The notes: generated from the letters alone by a model not told the origin. A DNA stretch of 64,000 bases from Bacillota bacterium (GCA_009784185.1 WRCD01000001.1:55255-119254), one strand, 5' to 3'; shown: positions 2-49,900, counted from the first letter of the stretch. Numbers and translations: made by a program.

Positions 2-676
2 GTAAAGGATGCGTACAACTACAAGGATATTCAATTTATATTAAGCGATACCGCCGGCATCCGGCGCGGAGAGACTCGCGTTGAAGAAATCGGCATTGAG
101 CGCAGCTACATGGAGATAGAGTCTGCCGATATTGTTCTCGTAGTGCTGGACTCAAGCCAGGGGCTGACTCAAGAGGATGAGAAGCTGCTTAAGCTGGTGG
201 AGGATAAGCCGTGTATTACGGTTTGGAACAAGGCGGATATTTCTAGCGATGGGATTGCTTCGTCTGATGGGGCAGGAAGCAGGGCTCGCAATGACAATGT
301 GGTTTGTGCGCTGTCTTTGCGAGACGGGCAAGCGGAGCCGGCAAACGAAGCAATCTCCCATATAGAAGTCAAAACATCAGCACTACAAAATGTAGGTATT
401 TCCGAACTCAAAGATGCAGTCTATCAAACCATATTTACCGGAAGCACTGCTTTAGCCTCCGACCAAATTATGCTAACCTCGCTAAGACATAAGGCGGCAA
501 TAGAGCTGGCGCTCAATTCGCTTAAAACAGCAATATCTATGGCGGATAATGACGGGCTGGAATGTGTTTCGCTCTATATCAAATCCGCATGGCTTGCGCT
601 TGGCGAAATTACAGGAACCACAAGCAACGAGGCGGTGCTGGATGCTATATTCAGCAAATTCTGTTTGGGGAAATGA
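2..676 (+). CDS. mnmE: tRNA modification GTPase MnmE, C-terminal part (5' end lies outside the window)
   Basis: The frame is open from nt 2. It contains DTAGIR (G3), NKAD (G4) and the family-typical C-terminal FCLGK, and it sits directly upstream of mnmG. It carries a repeat-derived in-frame insert at 241-367. Confidence 0.85.
   Translation, partial: VKDAYNYKDIQFILSDTAGIRRGETRVEEIGIERSYMEIESADIVLVVLDSSQGLTQEDEKLLKLVEDKPCITVWNKADISSDGIASSDGAGSRARNDNVVCALSLRDGQAEPANEAISHIEVKTSALQNVGISELKDAVYQTIFTGSTALASDQIMLTSLRHKAAIELALNSLKTAISMADNDGLECVSLYIKSAWLALGEITGTTSNEAVLDAIFSKFCLGK
241..296. repeat. Type-C palindromic repeat (TTCTA..GGGATTGCTTCG-N25-CTCGCAATGACA), inside mnmE
   Basis: It aligns by eye with the copies at 6080, 8997, 15199 and 16773. 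Confidence 0.75.
311..367. repeat. Type-C repeat, inverted copy, inside mnmE
   Basis: The sequence CTGTCTTTGCGAG...CGAAGCAATCTCCC..TAGAA is the reverse complement of the type-C consensus. Confidence 0.7.
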
Positions 677-687
677 ACAAGCAGGAT

Positions 688-825
688 AAAATTCCCCTCT
701 AGAGAGGGGTGCCCGCTTGCGGGCGGGGTGTGTAAAAAGGCCTTTACGCCACCTTCGGTGTCGGCTACCCCGTCTGCCCTCGCCTCTGCGGCTCGGTCAT
801 CCACCCCTTCGGGGAAGGGGAATTT
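688..825. repeat. Composite A/B palindromic MITE-like element
   Basis: It begins AAAATTCCCCTCTAGAGAGGGGTGCC-hairpin-GGCGGGGTGTGT and ends GGCTACCCCGTC..CCACCCCTTCGGGGAAGGGGAATTT. The termini are inverted. Confidence 0.8.
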
Positions 826-840
826 ATAGGAGACAAACTC

Positions 841-4855: not shown

Positions 4856-4879
4856 AAAAACCGCCGTTGGCGGTTTTTT
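4856..4879 (+). terminator. Intrinsic terminator after parB
   Basis: The stem CCGCC-GTT-GGCGG is followed by a T6 run. Confidence 0.7.
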
Positions 4880-4884
4880 GTTTC

Positions 4885-4932
4885 GGCTACCCCGTCAGCT
4901 TCGCTGCCACCCCTTCTAAAAAGGGGAATTTT
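4885..4932. repeat. Solo type-B end
   Basis: The sequence is GGCTACCCCGTCAGCTTCGCTGCCACCCCTTCTAAAAAGGGGAATTTT. Confidence 0.75.
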
Positions 4933-4963
4933 GCTCAAGACATATCTTTGCCGGACAGGGAAT

Positions 4964-5941: not shown

Positions 5942-5990
5942 AAAAGATTCCCCTCTTGAGAGGGGTGGCGCCGTAGGCGACGGGGTGTGT
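5942..5990. repeat. Solo type-A end
   Basis: The sequence is AAAAGATTCCCCTCTTGAGAGGGGTGGCGCCGTAGGCGACGGGGTGTGT. Confidence 0.75.
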
Positions 5991-6062: not shown

Positions 6063-6079
6063 ATTCACTTCCTGTAGAT

Positions 6080-6136
6080 TTCTATCTAGGGGATTGCTTC
6101 GCTGGAGGTGCTTCGAAGACCGTCTCGCAATGACAG
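6080..6136. repeat. Type-C repeat (intergenic)
   Basis: The sequence is TTCTATCTAGGGGATTGCTTCG...CTCGCAATGACAG. Confidence 0.75.
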
Positions 6137-8496: not shown

Positions 8497-8549
8497 CAAT
8501 TCCCCTTTTTAGAAGGGGTGGCAATCACGGAGTGATTGACGGGGTAGCC
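8497..8549. repeat. Solo type-B end (reverse), between the membrane-protein gene and dnaB
   Basis: The sequence is CAATTCCCCTTTTTAGAAGGGGTGGCAATCACGGAGTGATTGACGGGGTAGCC. Confidence 0.75.
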
Positions 8550-8564
8550 AAACGATAGCTGGGG

Positions 8565-8987
8565 TTATTTTTTCTTCTTTCGTTTCTTTTTATGGTTGGG
8601 GTTGTTGTTTCTGGGCTTTGGTTTTACGTCGCCTTTGGCGCCGGCTACCCCGTCAGCTTCGCTGCCACCCCTTCGCGAGGAAGGGGAATTTTGTCCGGGA
8701 AGGTCTTCGCCTGGCTCTGGTTTAGTCTCCTCGTTTGCCTTGTGCAGCGCCAGCTTGGCGGCGTATTGCTTTTCGGCCTTTTTGCGCTGCCGGATTTTTA
8801 GCCGGTGCTCGTAAACAACCTGGCTTACTATTATTGCTACACCCATCAGCAGGGCATCAATAACTACCAGCAGCCAGAAATTTATATGCGGCTCTAATAG
8901 CCAGCTGACCGCAATAATTACCGGCAAGGCAATTAAAATGCCCAGATAATACCGCTTAGCATAATCCCTTAACTCTTTTTTAGTCAT
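8565..8987 (-). CDS. Small two-TM membrane protein with a basic tail partly encoded by a type-B repeat
   Basis: Two hydrophobic helices are followed by a K/R-rich tail. A GAGGAG SD is present. The tail codons ..QNSPSSRRGGSEADGVAG.. coincide with the repeat copy at 8643-8692. Confidence 0.55.
   Translation of the reverse strand: MTKKELRDYAKRYYLGILIALPVIIAVSWLLEPHINFWLLVVIDALLMGVAIIVSQVVYEHRLKIRQRKKAEKQYAAKLALHKANEETKPEPGEDLPGQNSPSSRRGGSEADGVAGAKGDVKPKPRNNNPNHKKKRKKKK
8643..8692. repeat. Solo type-B end inside the coding sequence of the small membrane protein
   Basis: The sequence is GGCTACCCCGTCAGCTTCGCTGCCACCCCTTCGCGAGGAAGGGGAATTTT. Confidence 0.75.
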
Positions 8988-8996
8988 GATTCTCCT

Positions 8997-9054
8997 CTGT
9001 CATTGCGAGTCACACCCGGGTCTTCTTCAAACGAAGCAATCCCAATGGATAGAA
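8997..9054. repeat. Type-C repeat (reverse), abutting the SD of the minus-strand membrane-protein gene
   Basis: The sequence is CTGTCATTGCGAG...CGAAGCAATCCCAATGGATAGAA. Confidence 0.75.
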
Positions 9055-12247: not shown

Positions 12248-12314
12248 ACAATCAATTATAAAATATAAATTATAAAATATAAATTGCGGATTTTATTTCA
12301 ATAGAGGTGGGGGT

Positions 12315-12668
12315 GTGGTAAACGACAATATCGTAAAAAACAAAAGCGCAGACTTTGCTTTAAGAGTAGTTAATCTTTATAAATATCTGGTTGACGATAA
12401 AAACGAAAAGGTCATGTCCAAACAAATTCTTAGAAGCGGAACAAGTGTTGGCGCAAATGTCTCAGAAAGCGTATATGCATCCAGCAAAGCCGACTTTATT
12501 AACAAACTGCAGATTGCACAGAAAGAAGCAGGCGAAACTGAGTTTTGGATTGAATTATTATATAAGTCTAAATACATTGACCAAAAATTATTTAACAGTT
12601 TAATAAACGACTGCAAGGAACTGCTAAGACTGTTGGCCACCATAATCAAAAATTCTAAAAAATCCTAA
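12315..12668 (+). CDS. Four-helix-bundle protein (23S rRNA intervening-sequence protein / Avd-like family)
   Basis: Its size and pattern fit the family: FALRVVNLYKYL...QILRSGTSVGANVSE...F..KL.IA.KEA.ETEFWIELL. It has a GTG start after a GAGGTGGGGG SD and is visibly more AT-rich than its neighbours. Confidence 0.75.
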   Translation: MVNDNIVKNKSADFALRVVNLYKYLVDDKNEKVMSKQILRSGTSVGANVSESVYASSKADFINKLQIAQKEAGETEFWIELLYKSKYIDQKLFNSLINDCKELLRLLATIIKNSKKS

Positions 12669-12716
12669 ATTTATATTTTATATCTTATAATTTATAATTG
12701 TATCCAAAGGAGACAT

Positions 12717-13498: not shown

Positions 13499-13690
13499 AC
13501 TCCTTTTTAATTCTTAAAACTTTTTTAACTGGACCAAAACCAAAACTCTTTCAGAAAAAGGAGTAAGGGGAAAAGTTTTATACTTAATATTACCATATAA
13601 ATAAAAAATAATCAATAGTTTATGACAAACTTTTTCAATGAACATTTAACACTTAACACTGAACAATGTCGGGTCGCTGACACTCCGATT

Positions 13691-13855
13691 AAAATTCCCC
13701 TCTACAAGAGGGGTGCCCGTAGGGCGGGGTGTGGACAGAGCAAAGACACTCATTATTCTTGCCGCTTACGAATATCAATACTTAGTGAAGAGGTTTGTTT
13801 TTCACATACCCCGCCCCCTCTGGGGGCACCCCTTTATCTTAAAGGGGAATTTTTT
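13691..13855. repeat. Composite element with two inverted type-A ends
   Basis: It begins AAAATTCCCCTCTACAAGAGGGGTGCCCGTAGGGCGGGGTGTGG and ends CACATACCCCGCCCCCTCTGGGGGCACCCCTTTATCTTAAAGGGGAATTTTT. Confidence 0.8.
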
Positions 13856-13864
13856 GAGGTGGCA

Positions 13865-16840
13865 ATGGACAATTTCTACAATTACACAAAGTCTGAAATC
13901 TTTAATAAGTTCCGCACGAGCGAATCCGGTTTAACAAACGAGCGGGCGGAGGCTCTGCTCAAAACGCATGGACTCAACAAGTTGGCGGAGGCTAAAAAGA
14001 AACATCCGCTTATATTGTTTTTGGCTCAGTTTAAAGATATTATGGTTATTATTCTGCTTATTGCGGCCGTGGTGGTTGCCGCTGTGGGGCTGTTTAAGCA
14101 GGAATACAACGAGCTCTTAGACGCGGGCATAATTTTAATTATTGTACTATTAAATGCTGTTATAAACTTTATCCAACAAAACAAGGCCGATAAAAGCATG
14201 GAGAGCCTGAAGCGCATGAATCAGGCGCACGCCAAGGTGGTGCGGGGCGGGCAGGCTCGCAGTATCCTTGCTCAAAACATAGCATTAGGTGAGCTAATTA
14301 CGCTAGAAGCGGGCGATATTGTACCCGCGGATATGTTTATAACAAAGGCGCATAGCCTGCAGGTAAATGAGTCTGCGCTGACAGGTGAGAGCCATAGCGT
14401 AACCAAAACTGCTGCAGAGAGGCTGGGGCAAAACGTGGCGCTTGGAGATAGAACCAACATGGTGCATTCCGGCAGCGTGGTTAGTTATGGGCGCGGGGCT
14501 GGAGTTGCCGTACGCACCGGCATGAACACTGAAGTGGGTAAAATAGCGCACGCAATTAATACTGCTCCCGAGCAAACAACTCCGCTTCAGCAGAAACTGA
14601 ACAGAGTAGGAACAGTTATCGGAGTTGGTGTGCTGATAATTGCGGCGTTTATATTTGTGCTTAACGTGCTTGTTAAAGATGCTCATTCTATTTTTGACTC
14701 ATTGCTGGTTGCAATTGCGCTGGCGGTTGCAGCAATACCCGAAAGCCTGCCGGCGGCGGTTACTATAATAATGGCGCTAAGTGTTGGGCGGATGAGTAAG
14801 AAAAACGCCATTATCCGGCGGCTTAGTGCGGTAGAGACGCTTGGCTCATGTCAGGTAATATGCAGCGACAAAACCGGCACGCTTACGCAAAACAAGATGA
14901 CAGTGGTGGAAGTGTTTATGCCGGAAATGTTGACAGTACAAAATTCCCCTTCTCCGAAGGGGTGGATGCCGAAGGCAGACGGGGTAACAGCGGTCAAAGC
15001 AGAGTCCGTGCTGTTGGCCGCGGCAAGGCCGCGACTAGCCGCCGCGCAGAGCGGCGTAAGGGCCTTTAACACACCCCGTCCGCCTGACGGCTGCCCCCGG
15101 CTGCGCGCACCGCGCTTGCCCGCTTTGGCTACAAACAGCGCCCCACGCTGTTTGCTTTACGCGTCGCGCCCCTCTTATAGAGGGGAGTTGAGAAGCGCTT
15201 CTATCAGGGGGATTGCTTCGTTTGAAGGGGCAGGAGGCAGGGCTCGCAATGACAGCGCCCACGAGCTAATCCGCTGTATGCTGCTTTGCTCCGACTCTAC
15301 AGTCAGCGGCGGCAAGGTTATAGGCAACCCTACCGAAAATGCGCTGGTGGAGTACGGGCTGAAGCAGGGATTTAATAAAAAACTATTTGACGAACAATAT
15401 AGGAGAATAGACGAGCTGCCGTTTGACAGTAACCGAAAACTGATGACAACATTTAATATGGTAAACGGCAAGGTGGTTGGCTACACAAAGGGCTCGCCAG
15501 ATAATGTTTTGGACAGGTGTACACATTATTTGCAAGATGATGAGATGCTGCCACTTACCGGAGAAGTTGTTGAGCAAATGAAAAGCGAGATAGTTAGAGC
15601 AAACTCAAAAGCGTTGCGCACACTTGCGTTTGCGTATAAGGAATGTGGCGGAAGCAAGAAGTTTGGCTTTGACAATGAGCAGGGGCTAACTTTTATTGGT
15701 TTTGCTGGTCTAATTGACCCGCCAAGGCCGGAGGTGGCCCAGGCTATAAAAACCTGCAAGGCGGCCGGTATGACTACGGTAATGATTACCGGGGACCACT
15801 TAATTACCGCACTTGCAATAGCACGGCAGATTGGCTTAGCCGAGCGTGAACACGAAGCCATAACCGGCAAGCAGCTGGATGCCATGAGTGATGCGGAGTT
15901 TAAACGCAGGATAGAAAGCATTAAGGTTTACGCAAGAGTCAGCCCTGAAAACAAGGTGCGGATTGTGGATACATGGAAGAGCTTAGGCAAGGTGGTTGCC
16001 ATGACGGGCGACGGGGTGAATGACGCGCCAAGCCTTAAGCGGGCAGATATTGGAATCGGCATGGGCATATCGGGCACGGAGCTAACCAGGCAGGTGGCGG
16101 ATATGGTGCTTGCAGACGATAACTTTGCAACAATTGTGGTGGCGGTACGCGAGGGCAGGCGGATACTGGACAATATTAAAAAAGCCATCCGCTATATGTT
16201 CAGCACAAATCTGACGGAAGTTATTTCAATACTGACGGTTACAATGATTGCGCCCAAACTTACATTTTTATTGCCGATACAGATATTGTTTATAAACCTT
16301 GTTACCGACGGGCTGCCGGCCATTGCGCTGGGCATGCAAAGAAGCGAAAAGGATATTATGAACAGGAAGCCCGTACCCAAAACGGCTGGCCTATTTAGCG
16401 GCGGGCTTGGAAAAAACATTATTACCGAGGCCGCAATGCAAAGCGTTATTGTAATCAGCTTGTTTTTTGCAGCAAACGCCTTGTGGGGAAATGCTGTTGC
16501 CACAACCTGCGCTTTCATTACTCTCTCGCTGATACAACTATTCCACGCATGGAATGTACGAACTCATACAAGCATATTTAAGTCGGCTCCGCACAAAGAC
16601 AGGCTTATGCTGCTGGCATTCGGGCTTGGCCTTGGCCTTAACCTGATGATTGCACTTACGCCGGGCATTGCAGCCGCATTTGGAGTAGTTCCGCTAACCC
16701 TAACCCAATGGGCAGTGGTGGCGCTATGCAGTATGGCAATAATCCCACTGGTGGAGGTGTATAAACTAATAACTGTCTTTGCGAGTCGTTCCGGCAACGC
16801 CCGCAAACGAAGCAATCCCCTAAGTAGAAACAGCAGTTAA
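13865..16840 (+). CDS. P-type cation (Ca2+-type, P2) ATPase carrying repeat-derived insertions
   Basis: Motifs TGES, DKTGTLT, TGDH and GDGVNDAP, with about 10 TM segments. The true start is the ATG at 13865, after a GAGGTGG SD. The ORF-track start at 13622 reads through a palindromic element. Confidence 0.85.
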   Translation: MDNFYNYTKSEIFNKFRTSESGLTNERAEALLKTHGLNKLAEAKKKHPLILFLAQFKDIMVIILLIAAVVVAAVGLFKQEYNELLDAGIILIIVLLNAVINFIQQNKADKSMESLKRMNQAHAKVVRGGQARSILAQNIALGELITLEAGDIVPADMFITKAHSLQVNESALTGESHSVTKTAAERLGQNVALGDRTNMVHSGSVVSYGRGAGVAVRTGMNTEVGKIAHAINTAPEQTTPLQQKLNRVGTVIGVGVLIIAAFIFVLNVLVKDAHSIFDSLLVAIALAVAAIPESLPAAVTIIMALSVGRMSKKNAIIRRLSAVETLGSCQVICSDKTGTLTQNKMTVVEVFMPEMLTVQNSPSPKGWMPKADGVTAVKAESVLLAAARPRLAAAQSGVRAFNTPRPPDGCPRLRAPRLPALATNSAPRCLLYASRPSYRGELRSASIRGIASFEGAGGRARNDSAHELIRCMLLCSDSTVSGGKVIGNPTENALVEYGLKQGFNKKLFDEQYRRIDELPFDSNRKLMTTFNMVNGKVVGYTKGSPDNVLDRCTHYLQDDEMLPLTGEVVEQMKSEIVRANSKALRTLAFAYKECGGSKKFGFDNEQGLTFIGFAGLIDPPRPEVAQAIKTCKAAGMTTVMITGDHLITALAIARQIGLAEREHEAITGKQLDAMSDAEFKRRIESIKVYARVSPENKVRIVDTWKSLGKVVAMTGDGVNDAPSLKRADIGIGMGISGTELTRQVADMVLADDNFATIVVAVREGRRILDNIKKAIRYMFSTNLTEVISILTVTMIAPKLTFLLPIQILFINLVTDGLPAIALGMQRSEKDIMNRKPVPKTAGLFSGGLGKNIITEAAMQSVIVISLFFAANALWGNAVATTCAFITLSLIQLFHAWNVRTHTSIFKSAPHKDRLMLLAFGLGLGLNLMIALTPGIAAAFGVVPLTLTQWAVVALCSMAIIPLVEVYKLITVFASRSGNARKRSNPLSRNSS
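14940..15189. repeat. Composite B/A element (expanded) inside the ATPase coding sequence
   Basis: It begins AAAATTCCCCTTCTCCGAAGGGGTGGATGCCGAAGGCAGACGGGGTAAC and ends ACACACCCCGTCCGCC...GCGCCCCTCTTATAGAGGGGAGTT. Confidence 0.8.
15199..15255. repeat. Type-C repeat inside the ATPase coding sequence
   Basis: The sequence is TTCTATCAGGGGGATTGCTTCGTTTGAAGGGGCAGGAGGCAGGGCTCGCAATGACAG. Confidence 0.8.
16773..16829. repeat. Type-C repeat (reverse) forming the last codons of the ATPase gene
   Basis: The sequence is CTGTCTTTGCGAGTCG...CGAAGCAATCCCCTAAGTAGAA. Confidence 0.75.
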
Positions 16841-16854
16841 TATGAGCACGGAAC

Positions 16855-16977
16855 AAAATTCCCCTCTGTAAGAGGGGCGCGACGCGTAAAGCAAACAGCG
16901 TGGGGCGCTGTTTGTAGCCAAAGCGGGCAAGCGCGGTGCGCGCAGCCGGGGGCAGCCGTCAGGCGGACGGGGTGTGG
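16855..16977. repeat. Solo expanded type-A end; near-identical inverted copy of 15068-15189
   Basis: Its reverse complement aligns base-for-base with 15071-15189. I counted two differences (TTACAG/TTATAG and GAATT/GAGTT). Confidence 0.85.
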
Positions 16978-17001
16978 TTAGAGAAATGGAGCAACAAAAA
17001 A

Positions 17002-17032
17002 AGCGGGCTGGTTAGCCTGCTTTTACTTTTTT
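17002..17032 (+). terminator. Intrinsic terminator after the ATPase gene
   Basis: An 8-bp stem AGCGGGCT/AGCCTGCT with loop GGTT is followed by a T-rich tail. Confidence 0.6.
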
Positions 17033-18543: not shown

Positions 18544-18681
18544 AAAAATTCCCCTTTGCTGCGCGAAGGGGTGGATGACGAGCCGAAAGGCGATGTCAGA
18601 CGGGGTAGTCGCTTGCGGAGCAAGCGCAAAAGCCTTTTTAACACACCCCGCCCTTCGGGCACCCCTCTCAAGAGGGGAATT
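18544..18681. repeat. Composite B/A element
   Basis: It begins AAAAATTCCCCTTTGCTGCGCGAAGGGGTGGA..GACGGGGTAG and ends ACACACCCCGCCCTTCGGGCACCCCTCTCAAGAGGGGAATT. Confidence 0.8.
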
Positions 18682-18705
18682 AATTAGAAGAGGAGAAATA
18701 AAAAT

Positions 18706-19361: not shown

Positions 19362-19500
19362 AAAATTCCCCTCTAGAGAGGGGTGCCACGGAGTGGCGGG
19401 GTGTGGTTAACGCAAAGTTTTGCGCTACCTCCGGTAGCGGCTACCCCGTCTGCACTTCGCTAACGGCTCGTGCATCCACCCCTTCGAAAAAGGGGAATTT
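19362..19500. repeat. Composite A/B element
   Basis: It begins AAAATTCCCCTCTAGAGAGGGGTGCCACGGAGTGGCGGGGTGTGG and ends GGCTACCCCGTCTGC..CCACCCCTTCGAAAAAGGGGAATTT. Confidence 0.8.
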
Positions 19501-19522
19501 CATAAAGAAGGACAAAACAAAA

Positions 19523-23027: not shown

Positions 23028-24263
23028 ATGAAATTTAACAGCAATGCATTCGGTATTTTACAGGAGCGGGGGTTTGTTTACTTACTGAGTCATCCGGAAG
23101 AAACAAGGAAACTGCTTGAAAAAGGGCCCGTTACATTTTATCTTGGTATTGACCCAACCGCAGACGACCTGCATATAGGTCACTTTTTTGCGTTGCAGAT
23201 ATTTAAAATTCTGCAGGACTGCGGACATAAAGGGGTTCTGCTGATTGGCGGAGCAACTGCCATGATTGGCGATCCAAGCTTTAAGAGCGATATGCGTAAA
23301 CTCTTAACCAAAGAGGAAGTAGACAGAAACTCTAAAGAGATAAACGGCATACTGCACAGGTTTATCAGTTTATCCGGAGATAATCCGGCAATAGTTGTAA
23401 ACAATGCCGACTGGATAAGACAGAAAGATTTTATAGGCTTTCTGCGTGAAGTAGGCACACATTTTAACGTGGCTAAAATGCTGGCTGCGGATTGTTACAA
23501 AAACAGGCTGCATGAGGGCGGGCTGACTTTTCTGGAAATGGGATATATGCTTATGCAGGCGTATGATTTTGTGCATTTAAACGACAAGTACAACTGCTTA
23601 ATGCAGATTGGCGGCAGTGACCAATGGGGGAATATTGTTGCGGGCGTGGAGCTATCAAGAAAAATGAGCAACGCCAAGGGGCAGGAGCGGCCGCTTATGG
23701 TGGGTTTATGCTGTCCGCTGCTGACTAAGGCCGACGGAACAAAAATGGGCAAGACCGAAAAAGGTGTATTATGGGTAAGCCGAGATAAAACCAGTGCGTA
23801 TGACTGTTTTCAATACTTTACAAATGTATACGACGAGGATGTTGAGCAGCTGCTGCGATTCTTTACCATGCTTCCGGTTGCGGAAATTAAAGACAAATGC
23901 AAAACAGATATTGTTGGCGCAAAGCGCCTTATGGCATATGAGGTTACAAAAAAACTGCATGGAGAAGCCGAGGCTAAGCAGGCACAAGAAACCGCTAAAA
24001 CGCTGTTCTCCGGCGGCGGCGCGGACGGGGACGTTCCTACACAGGAAATCAGTATTGGGGCAGGGGCTAAGGTTGTGGATGTCTTAGCGCTGACAAGCAT
24101 TGTAAAAAGCAAGCGCGAAGCAAGGGAGTTTATTGAAGCCGGCGCAATTTTAATAGACAACGAAAAGGTAGTTGGGGTAGATTCCTGCCTTGATAAAAAC
24201 AAGAAAGAATTTTTGGTAAAGAAAGGGAAGAAGACCTTTTTAAAGGTTGTTTTGAAACCATAA
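23028..24263 (+). CDS. tyrS: Tyrosine--tRNA ligase
   Basis: HIGH (LHIGHF) and KMGKT (KMSKS) motifs, plus a C-terminal S4-like domain. The ATG lies 7 nt after an AGGAGA SD. Confidence 0.9.
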   Translation: MKFNSNAFGILQERGFVYLLSHPEETRKLLEKGPVTFYLGIDPTADDLHIGHFFALQIFKILQDCGHKGVLLIGGATAMIGDPSFKSDMRKLLTKEEVDRNSKEINGILHRFISLSGDNPAIVVNNADWIRQKDFIGFLREVGTHFNVAKMLAADCYKNRLHEGGLTFLEMGYMLMQAYDFVHLNDKYNCLMQIGGSDQWGNIVAGVELSRKMSNAKGQERPLMVGLCCPLLTKADGTKMGKTEKGVLWVSRDKTSAYDCFQYFTNVYDEDVEQLLRFFTMLPVAEIKDKCKTDIVGAKRLMAYEVTKKLHGEAEAKQAQETAKTLFSGGGADGDVPTQEISIGAGAKVVDVLALTSIVKSKREAREFIEAGAILIDNEKVVGVDSCLDKNKKEFLVKKGKKTFLKVVLKP

Positions 24264-24400
24264 TTCTCCTTTAAGATAAAGGAGCACCCCGCTTGCGGGG
24301 GGAGGTATGTGAAACAGTTGGATAAGCAATAAGACTGGCTTTATCACATACCCCGTCAAGCCTGACGGCTTGCCACCCCTTTATTTTAAGGGGGAATTTT
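24262..24400. repeat. Composite element, more degenerate
   Basis: It begins AATTCTCCTTTAAGATAAAGGAGCACCCCGCTTGCGGGGGG and ends CACATACCCCGTCAAGCCTGACGGCTTGCCACCCCTTTATTTTAAGGGGGAATTTT. Confidence 0.65.
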
Positions 24401-46985: not shown

Positions 46986-49900
46986 ATGAACAAAAGAGTT
47001 TTTATAAGTTCGTACAAAAGGTTGGGGCTGGTTGTTGCGCTGATAATGATTGCCGGCTCATTTATGTTTTTAATTAATGCGGGAAAAAGCATAGACCGTG
47101 CCAGCGCTTTTGACGGAACTCCCGTTGCTTTTGTTGACGGCACCGACGGCACTGGCGTGTTGGGTGACCCATACATAATAACTAAGGAAGGGCATTTAGT
47201 ATACCTGTCCGAAAACTATAACAGGCTGGGGGCAAAGCAGCACTATAGGCTGGGTGCTAATTTAGACTTGGACGGCTTTGTGTTTACCCCGATTGCAAAC
47301 GATAACGCAAATGCTTTTAAAGGAGAATTTGACGGCGCCGGTTTTGTAATTTCAAACTTTGTAATGAGCGGCAGCAGTAATGCGGGCGGCTTGTTCGGCT
47401 ATATTGACGGCGGAAAGGTTTTTGATGTTAACATAATAAACTTTAATGCCGAGCAGATTTATACGCCGGGCAGTTTGGCCGGCGGCATAGCGGGAGAGGC
47501 ATTAAACGCAGAAATAACAAACTGTACCGTTTCGTCCTCAAGGCTTACTGCATATAATTCGGCCGGCGGTATTGCCGGAAGTGCACACAGCACTGTTGTT
47601 GAAGACTGCAAAGTGTTTGCATCGTTTATCAGTGCGCAAAAAAGTGCGGGCGGCATTGTAGGTGAAATAACCGGCAGCGGAAGCGTTGTTAACAGCTGCC
47701 TGAGCCAGAACAACAACATATTGGCCGAGACATATATATTGCTGGCAGGTGTGGATTCTGCGGCGGGCGGCATTGCTGCAATAAGCAATGGCACGGCAAT
47801 AAGCGATTGCAGGAGCCGCGACAACAATATCTTTTCTCAGCGATATACCGCAGGGTTGGTTGCCGTTGCCCTGGGAACGACCATTACAAGCAGTTATAAT
47901 ACCAGCACGGTAAAGGGATATGACGGTGTAAGTTTTGCGGGTGTGTACTCGTTAAACGGCGCAAACGGGATTGACGGCATTGCTGCATTAAACGGCGCAG
48001 ACGGAAAGGCCGGGGCAGCGGGAGCAAACGGCACCCGCGGGGGAAGTGCGGGCGGAATTGTTTGTGTGATAGATTATGAAAGTGTCATAACGGACACCTT
48101 TAATGCGGGCATGATTATAGCGGGCAGCGGAGGCGGAGGCGGCAACGGCGGCAGCGGCGGCGGAGGCGGCAACAGCGGAAAAGACGGCTCTGATAATTAT
48201 CTGGCTAACGGAGGCAGCGGCGGCAGCGGAGGCGGAGGCGGCAACGGCGGCAACGGAGGCAGCGCGGGCGCAATATATGTTTTTTACTTAAACAACAGTT
48301 CTGTCCCGGTAAATATTGCCGGCATTATTACAAACACGTTTACCCGTGCGGGAATGGTTAATCTGGACCTGATAAACGGCAATGGCGGTTCTGCGGGCTT
48401 TGGTGGTTTTGCAGGGGGCTTTGGTTATGGTCTGGTTAATGGCAGCAGCGGGCAAAACGGGCTGAACGGCATTCCGGGTGACAGCGGGACAATTGAAAAA
48501 CTGACAGGTGAGGAGTTTCAGCCGCATCTGGTGTTTAATTATAATGGCGGTAATGTTGGTGTTGCAACAAAACCGGTTGATTACAACTCTGCGTTTGGCA
48601 CGTTGCCCGTGCCGGTTTATGATGGCTGGAAGTTTGTAGGCTGGCAAAACGAATATGGCAGTTTTGTAAACGGCAACACCTTATTCTTGGCGCTTGATAA
48701 AATTGAATTAACAGCTATATATGAAAAATTATACGTAATTAACGCGCATCTTAACAACGGCAGCGGAGTTTCAGGCACGGTGTTTGAAGCAAATGATTTT
48801 GTTGCCGAAGGGCTGCCTGTTCCTGTAAGAGCGGGCTGGGCGTTTGACGGCTGGTACCTTGATTCTGCTTTCGGCACTCCCTTATCCGCAACCGCTACCG
48901 CAATAAGCCTGGAAGCCAGTCCAACGGTATATGCCAAGTGGCTTCAGGAAATAAGAATAAACTTTAACATAACCGAGTTTGGCAGCATTATTAACAACGA
49001 GCCCGCAAGCGTGCTCAACAATTTTAACGCCGCTGCGCCCAATCAGTTGTATGTAATAAGAGTAAGCGGGCGGCCGCTTGGTGCATTGCCTGTAGCCAGG
49101 CCCAATATATTAAACAGCCAGTATTATTTCGGCGGCTGGTATGAGAATATATCAAATACTTCTACATTGGTTGCGGCAACCACGGTATACAACCATGCAA
49201 GCCTTACAAACGGGCAGATAACGCTTACCTCCAGATGGAACACTAACGCTTTCCTGGAGTATAACTTAATGGGCGCAGATGACATTGACGAGTGCAGTAC
49301 AGCATGGGACGGCGGCGATGAAATATATGCCGGCGGAACCGGAACCGAGCAAAACCCGTTTCAGATTGCTAACGCCAGACAGCTGAGGCAGCTGGCACTG
49401 CACGTAAACAACCGCACGGCAATCAGCCCGGGCAACTTTTATTTTGACAAACACTTTATTTTAACAAACAATATAGATTTGGGAACCGTTCATCTATGGG
49501 AGCCTATAGGTAACGGTTCGGTAGTCGGCGGACTGGTCAGGAGATTTGAAGGAAGCTTTCACGGAAATGGCTTTTATGTAAAAAATCTTAACATACAATA
49601 CAATAGCAGTACGGCAATAGCTGCCGGAAGCCGTATTTATCTGGGGCTGTTTGGCGCTGCACTTAATGCAAAAATTACCCAAGTTGGCATTGAAAGCGGA
49701 AGCATTACTTTTAACGCAACCGGAACGGGGAATATAGCTGAGCGCACACATATATATGTAGGCTCTGTTATCGGGCGTTGTGCCGGTGCTACATTGATAC
49801 AGGAATGCTACAGTAACGTTGATATCAACGTAAACGTTAACAGAACCGCTGCTACTCTGGGCGTTTCGGCTTTTGTGGGCGGAATGGTTGGCAGGCTTGA

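What the first reader, a model, noticed from the sequence alone, without database searches (positions are those of the whole stretch)
14940..15255. In-frame insert of about 105 codons, built from stacked mobile palindromic elements, in the nucleotide-binding region of an otherwise intact P-type ATPase
About 15 codons after the phosphorylation motif DKTGTLT the reading frame runs through three repeat units. These are a type-B end (14940), a linker plus an expanded type-A end (to 15189), and a type-C repeat (15199-15255). The ATPase sequence then resumes (..HELIRCMLLCSDS..GNPTENALV..). The inserted peptide QNSPSPKGWMPKADGV...RPRLAAAQSG...PRLRAPRLPALATNSAPRCLLYASRPSYRGELRSASIRGIASFEGAGGRARNDS has no stop codon across roughly 315 nt of highly structured, GC-rich repeat DNA. 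All catalytic motifs downstream (TGDH, GDGVNDAP) remain in frame. Either the pump tolerates a large, probably disordered loop at the P/N-domain junction, or this is a very recent inactivation that happens to be stop-free. Three different repeat units stacked in one gene also suggests that existing elements attract new insertions.
Basis: partly seen in the sequence, partly recalled or inferred. Interest (0 to 1): 0.75.

Follow-up and report, generated by a model that had tools for sequence, protein, structure and literature searches.

The report
Selfish palindromic repeats inside a calcium pump
An otherwise intact bacterial calcium-pump gene carries about 105 extra codons, read in frame, made of two kinds of small selfish palindromic DNA repeats that also occur in many bacterial phyla and often sit in frame inside genes there.

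Summary
The gene at 13865-16840 encodes a 991-aa P2A Ca2+-ATPase similar to Listeria LMCA1. Residues ~359-464 (nt 14940-15255, 64% GC against 46% for the window) are absent from its syntenic orthologue and from all 119 other best homologues (868-922 aa).

The insert is two elements, not three:
- a 250-nt inverted doublet of one repeat module (14940-15189);
- a 57-nt "type-C" palindrome (15199-15255).

Only one of six frames is open across the insert, and it is the gene's frame. All catalytic and ion-site residues are kept. AlphaFold predicts the insert as a disordered loop on a well-folded pump.

Other repeat units in the same window behave the same way. A type-C copy supplies the pump's last ~22 codons, two type-C copies lie in frame in mnmE, and one module lies in frame in a small membrane-protein ORF.

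I favour a tolerated, translated insertion like the Rickettsia palindromic elements (about 0.65). Recent inactivation is not excluded.

An unexpected result is that both repeat types occur across phyla. The module shows covariation that fits an intrastrand DNA triplex plus a hairpin. It lies in frame in HsdR, methyltransferase, radical-SAM and other genes. In 13 of 120 loci it brackets a DUF559 (Vsr-like) nuclease gene. Type-C units bracket small GIY-YIG nuclease genes in two loci. I found no published description of either.

The parts
13865..16840 (+). P2A-type Ca2+-ATPase gene (991 aa) that carries the insert
   Evidence: Pfam finds Cation_ATPase_N, E1-E2_ATPase, Cation_ATPase, Hydrolase and Cation_ATPase_C. 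Best solved relative is Listeria LMCA1, E=1e-192, matched as two blocks 3-368 and 466-969. The AlphaFold model matches 9evc with TM 0.88 normalised to the target.
14940..15189 (.). Inserted element 1: a 250-nt long variant of the two-module inverted doublet
   Evidence: Same layout as the 138-nt doublets at 689-826, 18546-18683 and 19363-19501. Only 1 of 6 frames is open.
14942..14985 (+). B-type triplex-hairpin module at the left end of element 1: AATTCCCCTTCTCCGAAGGGGTG-GATGCCGAAGGCAGA-CGGGGT
   Evidence: Translated as NSPSPKGWMPKADGV, the same frame as NSPPLEGW..DGV copies in other phyla.
15070..15189 (-). Expanded A-type module at the right end of element 1, with its second hairpin enlarged to about 85 nt
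   Evidence: 98% complementary over 120 nt to 16857-16976 (I1).
15199..15255 (+). Inserted element 2: a 57-nt type-C palindromic unit (GATTGCTTCG...CTCGCAATGAC)
   Evidence: 93% identical to the copy at 251-296. One of 6 copies in the window, 0 expected.
16773..16830 (-). Type-C unit that supplies the last ~22 codons of the ATPase (VFASRSGNARKRSNPLSRNSS) in place of the Lys-rich tail seen in orthologues
   Evidence: (I3, I4), the C-terminal block of the alignment.
16857..16976 (+). Solitary expanded A-type module just after the ATPase stop codon. It forms an inverted repeat with 15070-15189.
   Evidence: The gene's likely intrinsic terminator follows at 16999-17024.
13693..13853 (.). Two inverted A-type modules around a 77-nt AT-rich core, directly upstream of the ATPase start. 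The stretch is stop-free in the gene's frame, which explains the 1072-aa gene call in another assembly.
240..368 (.). Two inverted type-C units in frame in mnmE. They replace the ~17-aa stretch between the NKxD motif and the last strand of the G domain with ~40 aa.
   Evidence: Translation. In the alignment to T. maritima TrmE, query 8-81 matches 289-363 and query 122-224 matches 381-482.
8625..8690 (-). Module read in frame (QNSPSSRRGGSEADGV) in the C-terminal tail of ORF 8565-8987. A partner module lies at 8498-8545.
689..826 (.). Reference 138-nt intergenic doublet (A module, linker, inverted B module) between mnmE and mnmG
   Evidence: Folds as one long hairpin, -65 kcal/mol, z = -3.2.
18546..18683 (.). 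138-nt intergenic doublet between cysS and the LOG-like gene
19363..19501 (.). 139-nt intergenic doublet after the LOG-like gene
6079..6136 (+). Intergenic type-C unit. Another lies at 8999-9041 (-).
4865..4933 (-). Solitary B-type module after parB. Further module copies lie at 5947-5985 and 24262-24400.

Best explanation
Two unrelated small selfish palindromic repeats landed 9 nt apart in a surface loop of the nucleotide-binding domain of a Ca2+-ATPase. One is a 250-nt inverted doublet of a 'triplex-hairpin' module. The other is a 57-nt type-C palindrome.

The copies that persist are those that keep the reading frame. The pump is therefore made with an extra, unstructured loop of about 105 residues between the first beta-hairpin and the first helix of the N domain, and it most likely still works.

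This is the same outcome as for Rickettsia palindromic elements: insertion is indiscriminate, and selection keeps only in-frame, stop-free, surface-exposed copies.

Shown here:
- the insert is repeat DNA that orthologues lack;
- it is in frame;
- the rest of the gene is undamaged;
- the model places the insert as a disordered loop;
- the same repeats sit in frame in other genes of this window and of other phyla.

Inferred:
- the insert is translated and the pump is active;
- the elements move or moved. For the module, a DUF559 (Vsr-like) nuclease acting in trans is a candidate, because modules bracket such genes elsewhere;
- the conserved single-strand fold (an intrastrand purine-motif triplex plus a C-GNA-G hairpin) is what that machinery recognises.
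For: Insert is foreign:
- The syntenic orthologue (L001; ZIP-SDR-DnaB-helicase-methyltransferase-ATPase-CysS-LOG) and the 119 other best homologues are 868-922 aa and lack it.
- No repeat copy occurs in L001 or L002.
- Other copies of both repeats in the window are intergenic.

Frame:
- The 250-nt doublet is open in only 1 of 6 frames, the one used, and the ATPase resumes in frame. My estimate is that a random insertion would look like this about 1 time in 18.

No decay:
- The gene keeps 198 of 206 positions that are invariant in 11 homologues. The 8 changes are all conservative, and other members lose 0-18.
- D335KTGT, E293, N782/E785, N811/D815, TGDH and GDGVNDAP are intact.

Structure:
- AlphaFold gives pLDDT 81 and pTM 0.77. 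Only residues 361-461 fall below 50, with no secondary structure.
- The rest superposes on LMCA1 9evc with TM 0.88.
- The insert replaces a stretch that in LMCA1 is residues ~357-371.

Recurrence:
- Two type-C units lie in frame in mnmE.
- A type-C unit forms the ATPase C-terminus.
- A module lies in frame in ORF 8565-8987.
- In other phyla, 28 of 179 modules lie in reading frames open for at least 60 codons on both sides. Pfam domains on both sides were confirmed for HsdR, an MmeI-like methyltransferase, a type ISP enzyme, a ketosynthase/AMP-binding protein, a radical-SAM YgiQ and an O-methyltransferase.

Other:
- No terminator-like site lies on the sense strand within the insert.
- A second public assembly is identical over 23.2 kb that include the insert.
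Against: - There is no expression, proteomic or activity evidence.
- No relative between 64% and 100% identity exists in the protein collection. So neither the age of the insertion nor selection since it happened can be measured.
- The 120-nt arm is 98% identical to the copy 1.7 kb downstream. The insertion may therefore be recent, and in that case the lack of decay says little.
- About 11 native loop codons are missing relative to orthologues, which could matter for N-domain folding.
- The second assembly may rest on the same reads.
- Whether the genome has another Ca2+-ATPase could not be checked.
Confidence: 0.65

Rival explanations
1. Recent inactivation. The insertions are young, happen to be stop-free and in frame, and the pump is misfolded or inactive. 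The gene is an incipient pseudogene that has not yet accumulated damage.
For: - The 120-nt arm is 98% identical to the downstream copy, which suggests recent duplication.
- The gene has taken five repeat insertions, inside it or directly flanking it, including loss of its native C-terminal tail and of ~11 loop codons. That could reflect relaxed constraint.
- No close relatives exist to test constraint.
Against: - The chance that a random insertion of this doublet is open and restores the frame is about 1 in 18 by my estimate.
- Nothing else in the gene has decayed.
- The same repeats sit in frame in mnmE, a conserved single-copy housekeeping gene, and in frame in many intact multi-domain genes of other phyla.
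- The site is a length-variable surface loop that the model leaves outside the fold.
Confidence: 0.22
2. The insert is removed or bypassed before a mature protein is made. Possible routes are excision at the DNA level, processing and religation of the highly structured RNA, or intein-like protein splicing.
For: - The insert is strongly structured (DNA fold -82.8 kcal/mol, z = -3.4).
- Related elements in other genomes carry a nuclease ORF in frame within host genes, a layout that recalls inteins and homing endonuclease genes.
Against: - Pfam finds no Hint or intein domain, and the boundaries (V|QNSPS ... ARNDS|AH) do not have the usual residues at both splice junctions.
- No Rfam family, intron or ribozyme matched in 1-26000 at E<=1.
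- If the insert were removed, nothing would select for an open frame, yet the only open frame is the one used.
Confidence: 0.05
3. Assembly artefact. Short-read assembly collapsed or chimerised repeat copies into the ATPase gene.
For: - The contigs come from short-read metagenome assemblers.
- Other copies of both repeats lie within 2 kb.
Against: - A chimera would not be expected to restore the ATPase frame exactly and continue with the correct downstream gene.
- The 250-nt element has unique internal sequence. Only its 120-nt arm has a near-identical copy.
- A separately deposited ENA assembly (207-kb contig) is 100% identical over 23,219 nt across the region.
Confidence: 0.03
4. Native lineage-specific domain. 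The segment is an evolved functional loop of this ATPase lineage and only resembles the repeats.
For: This region of P2 ATPases varies in length (from my own knowledge, SERCA has a longer segment here than LMCA1).
Against: - The segment is made of units with near-identical copies in intergenic DNA.
- Its GC content is 18 points above that of the window.
- It is absent from the syntenic orthologue.
- It is predicted to be disordered.
Confidence: 0.02

Closest known systems
Rickettsia palindromic elements (RPEs; Ogata et al. 2000, as summarised in review PMC10969869)
   Same: Both are palindromic repeats of about 100-150 nt with several families. They are inserted in frame in unrelated housekeeping genes, encode a conserved peptide, are thought to be tolerated because they lie at protein surfaces, and also occur intergenically.
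   Different: - The host lineage differs: by homologue names this is probably a Clostridia-like uncultured bacterium.
- I did not test sequence similarity to RPEs.
- Here the basic unit is a ~40-nt module found across many phyla, with covariation that fits a triplex.
- The module brackets a nuclease gene in some genomes. As far as I know no such association is described for RPEs.
REP / BIME / REPIN elements and their RAYT transposases (Di Nocera et al. 2013, PMC3733652)
   Same: Both are short GC-rich palindromes that occur singly, as inverted doublets and in clusters. Both are mostly extragenic but sometimes lie inside genes. In both, ORF-less units coexist with copies that flank an enzyme gene.
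   Different: - There is no GTAG or CGTC tag; the conserved 5' end is AATT.
- No Y1 (RAYT) transposase gene lies near the modules in 120 loci. The only enriched neighbour is DUF559.
- The sequence is conserved across phyla, not confined to one species or genus.
Intrastrand triplex motif TMECO / BoxC of enterobacteria (Holder et al. 2015, PMC4666352)
   Same: Both are a repeated pyrimidine block followed by two purine blocks that can form a purine-motif intrastrand triplex. Both are abundant, are conserved repeats, and are linked to genome rearrangement.
   Different: - TMECO is CCCTCNCCC-N3-6-GGGNGAGGG-N3-GGGNGAGGG, with short loops.
- In the module here the third strand is separated from the duplex by a variable hairpin of 10-90 nt. 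Their finder, which allows loops of at most 6 nt, would miss it.
- Triplex formation is inferred here only from covariation. It has not been measured.
Vsr-like (PD-(D/E)xK) homing endonucleases in 'fractured genes' and group I introns (Dassa et al. 2009, PMC2677866)
   Same: In both, a small Vsr-fold nuclease gene is inserted inside conserved protein-coding genes. The same host-gene site recurs in different organisms: HsdR in L090 and P0131, and the type ISP enzyme in L016, L047 and P0157.
   Different: - Here the nuclease is Pfam DUF559, bracketed by structured inverted modules.
- The whole element is read through in frame, with no intein, no intron and no split of the host gene.
- The window itself has only ORF-less copies.
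MITEs that make in-frame fusions (ERIC, BOX, Anabaena MITEs; review PMC10969869)
   Same: Both are small, non-autonomous, have terminal inverted repeats and many copies, and occasionally lie inside genes with an open frame.
   Different: - No target-site duplication can be called here, because the terminal AATT is its own complement.
- No conventional transposase partner is known.

Membership tests
P2A Ca2+-transporting P-type ATPase | Five Pfam domains in order, and closest solved relatives are Ca2+-ATPases | tested here: met
   (all five domains above cut-off). (LMCA1 E=1e-192; SERCA 1e-138). (TM 0.88 to 9evc).
P2A Ca2+-transporting P-type ATPase | Catalytic and ion-site residues: DKTGT, TGD, GDGxND, the M4 PExL glutamate, the M5 N/E pair and the M6 N/D pair | tested here: met
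   D335-T339, T642-D644, G715-D720, E293, N782/E785 and N811/D815 are invariant columns of the 12- and 55-sequence alignments.
P2A Ca2+-transporting P-type ATPase | Ca2+-dependent ATP hydrolysis or transport | not testable with these tools
   Needs expression and an assay.
Rickettsia palindromic elements | Sequence membership in RPE families 1-10 of Rickettsia | not tested
   No RPE sequences were compared. The host is not a Rickettsia, although one module copy was found in a Rickettsiales MAG (L052).
Rickettsia palindromic elements | Palindromic repeat inserted in frame in functional genes at surface positions | tested here: met
   for the window. for other genomes.
MITE | Short, many copies, no coding capacity of its own, terminal inverted repeats | tested here: met
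   Doublets of 138-250 nt end in AAATTCCCCT...AGGGGAATTT. There are 13 module copies in the window.
MITE | Target-site duplication, and a cognate autonomous IS with the same ends | tested here: inconclusive
   The terminal AATT is its own reverse complement, so a TSD and a TIR cannot be told apart. The ORF-bearing relatives carry DUF559, not a known transposase.
REP/REPIN | GTAG or CGTC tag next to the palindrome | tested here: not met
   151 unique copies all start with AATT, which the search pattern imposed. Neither tag appears in the printed flanks, though I did not screen for them specifically.
REP/REPIN | Association with a RAYT (Y1 HUH) transposase gene | tested here: not met
   Unbiased clustering of ORFs in 120 loci gave DUF559 as the only specifically enriched family and no Y1 transposase cluster. 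Whole genomes were not searched.
Intrastrand triplex motif (purine motif) | Py block, complementary Pu block, then a third block that mirrors the Pu block so that C-G*G, T-A*A and T-A*T triads can form | tested here: met
   Variable positions 6 and 7 follow the triad rules in 164 of 165 and 139 of 141 copies. None of 2000 tail shuffles reaches this. Caveat: the copies are related to each other.
Intrastrand triplex motif (purine motif) | Physical triplex formation (CD, NMR, footprinting) | not testable with these tools
   Holder et al. did this for TMECO (PMC4666352). It has not been done for this module.
Intein | Hint domain with conserved residues at both splice junctions | tested here: not met
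   No Pfam match in residues 359-464. The segment is repeat DNA and is predicted to be disordered.

The most novel reading that the evidence does not exclude
The two repeats in this pump may be ORF-less derivatives of two families of miniature mobile elements that occur across bacterial phyla and that I could not find described.

- In their full forms a ~110-aa nuclease gene is bracketed by conserved single-strand-structured ends. For the triplex-hairpin module the nuclease is DUF559 (Vsr-like). For the GTCATTGCGAG...CGAAGCAATC palindrome it is a small GIY-YIG nuclease.
- Both families are largely stop-free and are routinely read through when they land in genes.

If so, they would be a bacteria-wide counterpart of the Rickettsia palindromic elements and a general source of new loops and tails in proteins.
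Probability: 0.35. Interest if true: 0.85.

Novelty: new variant of a known kind. Interest (0 to 1): 0.68.

Why it matters
In-frame palindromic repeats in genes are a textbook curiosity of Rickettsia. This window shows the same thing in an unrelated uncultured bacterium, in a well-understood membrane pump and in mnmE. That gives a clean test case for how large an unstructured insert an N domain can tolerate.

The broader point is that the repeat units are not private to this genome. The same ~40-nt module, with covariation that points to a DNA triplex plus a hairpin, occurs from Chlamydiota to Cyanobacteria. It is often in frame inside genes, including the same sites of restriction-modification genes in different organisms, and it sometimes brackets a DUF559 nuclease gene.

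If that association reflects mobility, three things follow:
- It would assign a role to one subfamily of a very common domain of unknown function (more than 5000 homologues of the query).
- It would explain a class of recurrent 'hypothetical protein' peptides (NSPPLEGW..GVV, TPPxEGN, ..ARND..) in genome annotations.
- It would identify a widespread route by which selfish DNA adds loops to proteins.

Tried and rejected
- Rfam scan of 1-26000 at E<=1: no family matched.
- Exact look-up of the 991-aa product: not on record. The 1072-aa upstream-extended form was found instead.
- Protein search with the 106-aa insert peptide: nothing at E<=0.01. It did not even recover the window's own protein, so the result is uninformative.
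- Degenerate-codon scan of JGI metagenomes for the left flank (VVEVFMPEMLTV), to look for strains with or without the insert: no hit.
- Full-text searches for the motif sequences and for their peptide translations: only irrelevant hits.
- The 25 papers that mention DUF559: none has a title or abstract that points to such elements. I did not read them.
- Single type-C units folded alone are no more stable than shuffles (z between -1.1 and +0.5). Their palindromic character is better seen in the canonical 32-nt form from other genomes.
- RAYT/REP explanation: set aside because there is no GTAG or CGTC tag and no Y1 transposase near the modules.
- Intein or intron explanations: set aside.
- dN/dS on the flanks: not attempted, because the nearest orthologue is only 62% identical and synonymous sites would be saturated.
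Full report
THE GENE AND THE INSERT

Window 13865-16840 (+) is a 991-codon ORF with a GAGGTG ribosome-binding site.
- Pfam finds the five domains of a cation P-type ATPase.
- The best solved relative is the Listeria Ca2+-ATPase LMCA1 (E=1e-192). It matches as two blocks: query 3-368 to LMCA1 3-368, and query 466-969 to LMCA1 372-875. About 100 residues of the query therefore have no counterpart.
- DKTGTLT is at 335-341. The extra segment runs from Q359 to S464 (nt 14940-15255). Then AHELIRCMLLCSDS, GNPTENALV, TGDH and GDGVNDAP follow in frame.
- The segment is 64% GC against 45.7% for the window. It has stops in five of six frames, and the open one is the gene's frame.

IT IS FOREIGN TO THE ATPASE FAMILY

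- Of 7999 homologues scored, the 119 best other than the window's own protein are 868-922 aa. The nearest (P0002 and P0003, 62% and 61% identical in the alignment) show a clean gap over the segment.
- P0002 lies in a syntenic locus (ZIP transporter, SDR, DnaB, helicase, methyltransferase, ATPase, CysS, LOG-like), so it is the orthologue.
- Neither that locus nor L002 contains any copy of the repeats.
- The gap is not exact. The query also lacks about 11 loop residues that all relatives have between the strand after DKTGT and the helix ELxR.

WHAT THE INSERT IS MADE OF

The window holds 13 copies of a hairpin-led module and 6 copies of a second palindrome, 'type C'. None is expected by chance.

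Module layout:
- AATTCCCCT-loop-AGGGGTG, then a variable second hairpin, then (A/C)CGGGGT plus 2-3 nt.
- Two modules in inverted orientation joined by a linker form 138-139-nt elements. These fill the intergenic spaces at 689-826, 18546-18683 and 19363-19501, and each folds as one long hairpin.

The insert:
- 14940-15189 has exactly this layout: B-type module, linker, inverted A-type module. Its linker hairpin and its A-module second hairpin are enlarged. It is one 250-nt element, not two.
- Nine nucleotides later comes a 57-nt type-C unit (15199-15255), 93% identical to the copy at 251-296.

Other repeat sites at this gene:
- The 120-nt A-type arm has a 98% identical inverted copy at 16857-16976, just past the stop codon.
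- A further type-C unit (16773-16830) supplies the last ~22 codons of the ATPase. Orthologues have a Lys-rich tail there.
- Two more modules sit directly upstream (13693-13853).
- In total, five repeat sites lie in or around this one gene.

IS THE GENE STILL GOOD?

- The gene keeps 198 of 206 positions that are invariant among 11 homologues. The eight changes are conservative, and other family members lose 0-18.
- The phosphorylation site, hinge motifs and ion-site residues are invariant columns that the query shares.
- AlphaFold with a 55-sequence alignment gives mean pLDDT 81 and pTM 0.77. Only residues 361-461 are below 50, with no secondary structure. They lie between strand 356-359 and helix 463-474.
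- The rest superposes on LMCA1 in the E1-Ca state with TM 0.88.
- The site is about 15 residues into the N domain, in a stretch whose length differs between LMCA1 and SERCA. It is not the P/N hinge itself (for the LMCA1 alignment; the domain boundaries and the SERCA comparison are from my own knowledge).
- The sense strand of the insert has no terminator-like site.
- The 250-nt element is open in one of six frames, and the downstream frame is also restored. My estimate is that a random insertion would look like this about 1 time in 18.
- A separately deposited ENA assembly is identical over 23,219 nt including the insert. This argues against a one-off assembly error, although the reads may be shared.

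THE SAME BEHAVIOUR ELSEWHERE IN THE WINDOW

- The C-terminal half of mnmE (window 2-676) reads through two inverted type-C units (240-368). Against T. maritima TrmE, a 17-residue stretch between NKxD and the last strand of the G domain is replaced by about 40 residues.
- ORF 8565-8987 reads through a module as QNSPSSRRGGSEADGV. This is the same frame as QNSPSPKGWMPKADGV in the pump.
- By my count, seven of the 19 repeat units lie inside ORFs, and all seven are open in the host frame. Short units are open in 3-5 of 6 frames, so this is only weakly informative for them.

THE MODULE IS NOT LINEAGE-SPECIFIC

Distribution:
The hosts include Chlamydiota, many Chryseobacterium species, Bacteroidales, Verrucomicrobia, Planctomycetota, Cyanobacteria, Patescibacteria, Nitrospira, Oscillospiraceae, Acidobacteria, a Rickettsiales MAG and Gammaproteobacteria.
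- My rough expectation for chance matches over the whole collection was about a dozen.

Features that the search pattern did not impose are nevertheless shared:
- The second hairpin has 66 different stem sequences but always pairs (mean perfect stem 4.7 bp against 2.3 bp in shuffles).
- Its loop is C-GNA-G or C-AAA-G in 92 of 151 copies. From my own knowledge, that loop type marks very stable single-stranded DNA mini-hairpins, and it is strand-specific.
- The two variable base pairs at the bottom of the first stem covary with the two bases after CGGGGT according to purine-motif triplex rules. C-G pairs go with G; T-A pairs go with A or T.
- The rules hold in 164 of 165 and 139 of 141 copies, and none of 2000 shuffles reaches this.
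- The module therefore looks like an intrastrand triplex whose third strand is delivered by a hairpin.
- The nearest described object is the TMECO/BoxC triplex repeat of enterobacteria (PMC4666352). Its finder allowed only loops of up to 6 nt. Relatedness among copies could inflate the covariation signal, and triplex formation has not been measured.

IN-FRAME COPIES AND A NUCLEASE PARTNER IN OTHER GENOMES

In-frame copies:
- 28 of 179 modules lie in frames open for at least 60 codons on both sides.
- Pfam confirms host domains on both sides for an HsdR, an MmeI-like methyltransferase, a type ISP enzyme, a ketosynthase/AMP-binding protein, a radical-SAM YgiQ and an O-methyltransferase.

DUF559 partner:
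- In 13 of the 120 loci, a DUF559 (PF04480; Vsr-like PD-(D/E)xK) ORF with 52-69% identity across phyla lies next to the modules. In most of these it sits between inverted modules with the AATT ends outward, and the smallest such element is about 440 nt.
- Unbiased clustering of all ORFs in these loci gives DUF559 as the only specifically enriched family. No Y1 transposase cluster appears.
- More than 5000 homologues exist. Many predicted proteins carry the module peptides (NSPPLEGW..GVV before the domain, TPPxEGN after it).
- The same insertion sites recur in HsdR (L090, P0131) and in type ISP enzymes (L016, L047, P0157).
- Vsr-like nucleases have been proposed as homing endonucleases in another context (PMC2677866).
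- The window has no DUF559 gene, so any mobilisation would be in trans or in the past.

TYPE C IS ALSO WIDESPREAD

The canonical 32-nt form is GATTGCTTCGTCGCTTCGCTCCTCGCAATGAC, and its complement has GCGAAGC at the centre.
- It also occurs in four other genomes among the module loci.
- In two loci (L176, L217) a ~94-aa GIY-YIG nuclease ORF is flanked on both sides by inverted pairs of type-C units. In two more (L170, L174) a related GIY-YIG ORF is flanked on each side by a single sister palindrome with GTCATT...AATC ends. This is a lead only.

COMPARISON WITH WHAT IS KNOWN

- The outcome matches Rickettsia palindromic elements, which are the known case of frequent in-frame repeat insertion (review PMC10969869).
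- It also matches the occasional intragenic REPs (PMC3733652).
- It is not a REP in the strict sense, because it has no GTAG or CGTC tag and no RAYT nearby. It is not an intein. It matches no Rfam family.
- I rate the finding itself as a new variant of a known kind.
- The cross-phylum module, its triplex-type covariation and its nuclease partners appear to be undescribed in the literature I could search. That library is limited to open-access papers.

VERDICT

- The insert is real and made of selfish repeats (about 0.95).
- It is probably translated and tolerated (about 0.65).
- Recent inactivation remains possible (about 0.2).
- The other explanations are minor.

Noticed in passing
L004-L123 (GTDB genomes); window copies listed under parts: The ~40-nt module AATTCCCCT..AGGGGTG-hairpin-CGGGGT occurs in many bacterial phyla. 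Its covariation fits a purine-motif intrastrand triplex, and its second hairpin has C-GNA-G loops typical of stable single-stranded DNA hairpins.
   Followed up: partly
L016, L032, L047, L070, L073, L089, L090, L107, L115, L116, L119, L122, L123: A DUF559 (Vsr-like) nuclease ORF lies next to the modules and in most of these loci is bracketed by inverted copies. In HsdR, an MmeI-like methyltransferase and a type ISP enzyme, the whole unit is read in frame, and the same host sites recur in different organisms.
   Followed up: partly
L176:200-760; L217:6890-7490; L170; L174: In L176 and L217 a small GIY-YIG nuclease ORF (~94 aa) is flanked on both sides by inverted pairs of type-C palindromes. 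In L170 and L174 it is flanked on each side by a single sister palindrome with GTCATT...AATC ends. This suggests a second family of nuclease-plus-palindrome elements.
   Followed up: partly
window 240-368: mnmE carries two inverted type-C units in frame in its G domain, between the NKxD motif and the last strand. They replace about 17 native residues with about 40.
   Followed up: yes
window 15070-15189 and 16857-16976: 120-nt inverted repeats, 98% identical, flank the 3' 1.67 kb of the ATPase gene. Recombination between them would invert that segment and break the gene. In the assembled orientation the gene is intact.
   Followed up: no
window 12253-12700: A PF05635 '23S rRNA intervening-sequence protein' ORF (12315-12668) is bracketed by 42-nt AT-rich inverted repeats and sits between the helicase and methyltransferase genes. 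The syntenic locus L001 has only about 22 nt there, so this looks like another small ORF-plus-inverted-repeat insertion.
   Followed up: partly
window 13829-13864: The module hairpin just upstream of the ATPase start is followed by AATTTTTT on the sense strand and scores as terminator-like. It lies directly before the ribosome-binding site and could dampen read-through into the pump gene.
   Followed up: no
window 13622-13864: The upstream repeat pair is stop-free in the ATPase frame. One public assembly therefore calls a 1072-aa product that starts 81 codons too early. Alignment to homologues and the GAGGTG site support the start at 13865.
   Followed up: yes
window 27000-48300: Very large ORFs with many internal ~250-1400-nt repeats, one called at 6448 aa with a weak Flg_new_2 hit. 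A Gly-rich GGC/GGA 9-nt periodic tract lies at 48111-48281. No module or type-C copy lies beyond about 24.4 kb.
   Followed up: no
L093:2795-4031: A histidine-kinase-like ORF in another genome reads through a pair of type-C units near its N-terminus (..CHCEPRRGEAI..LLRGAKAPLAVT..). This is another in-frame type-C case outside the window.
   Followed up: no
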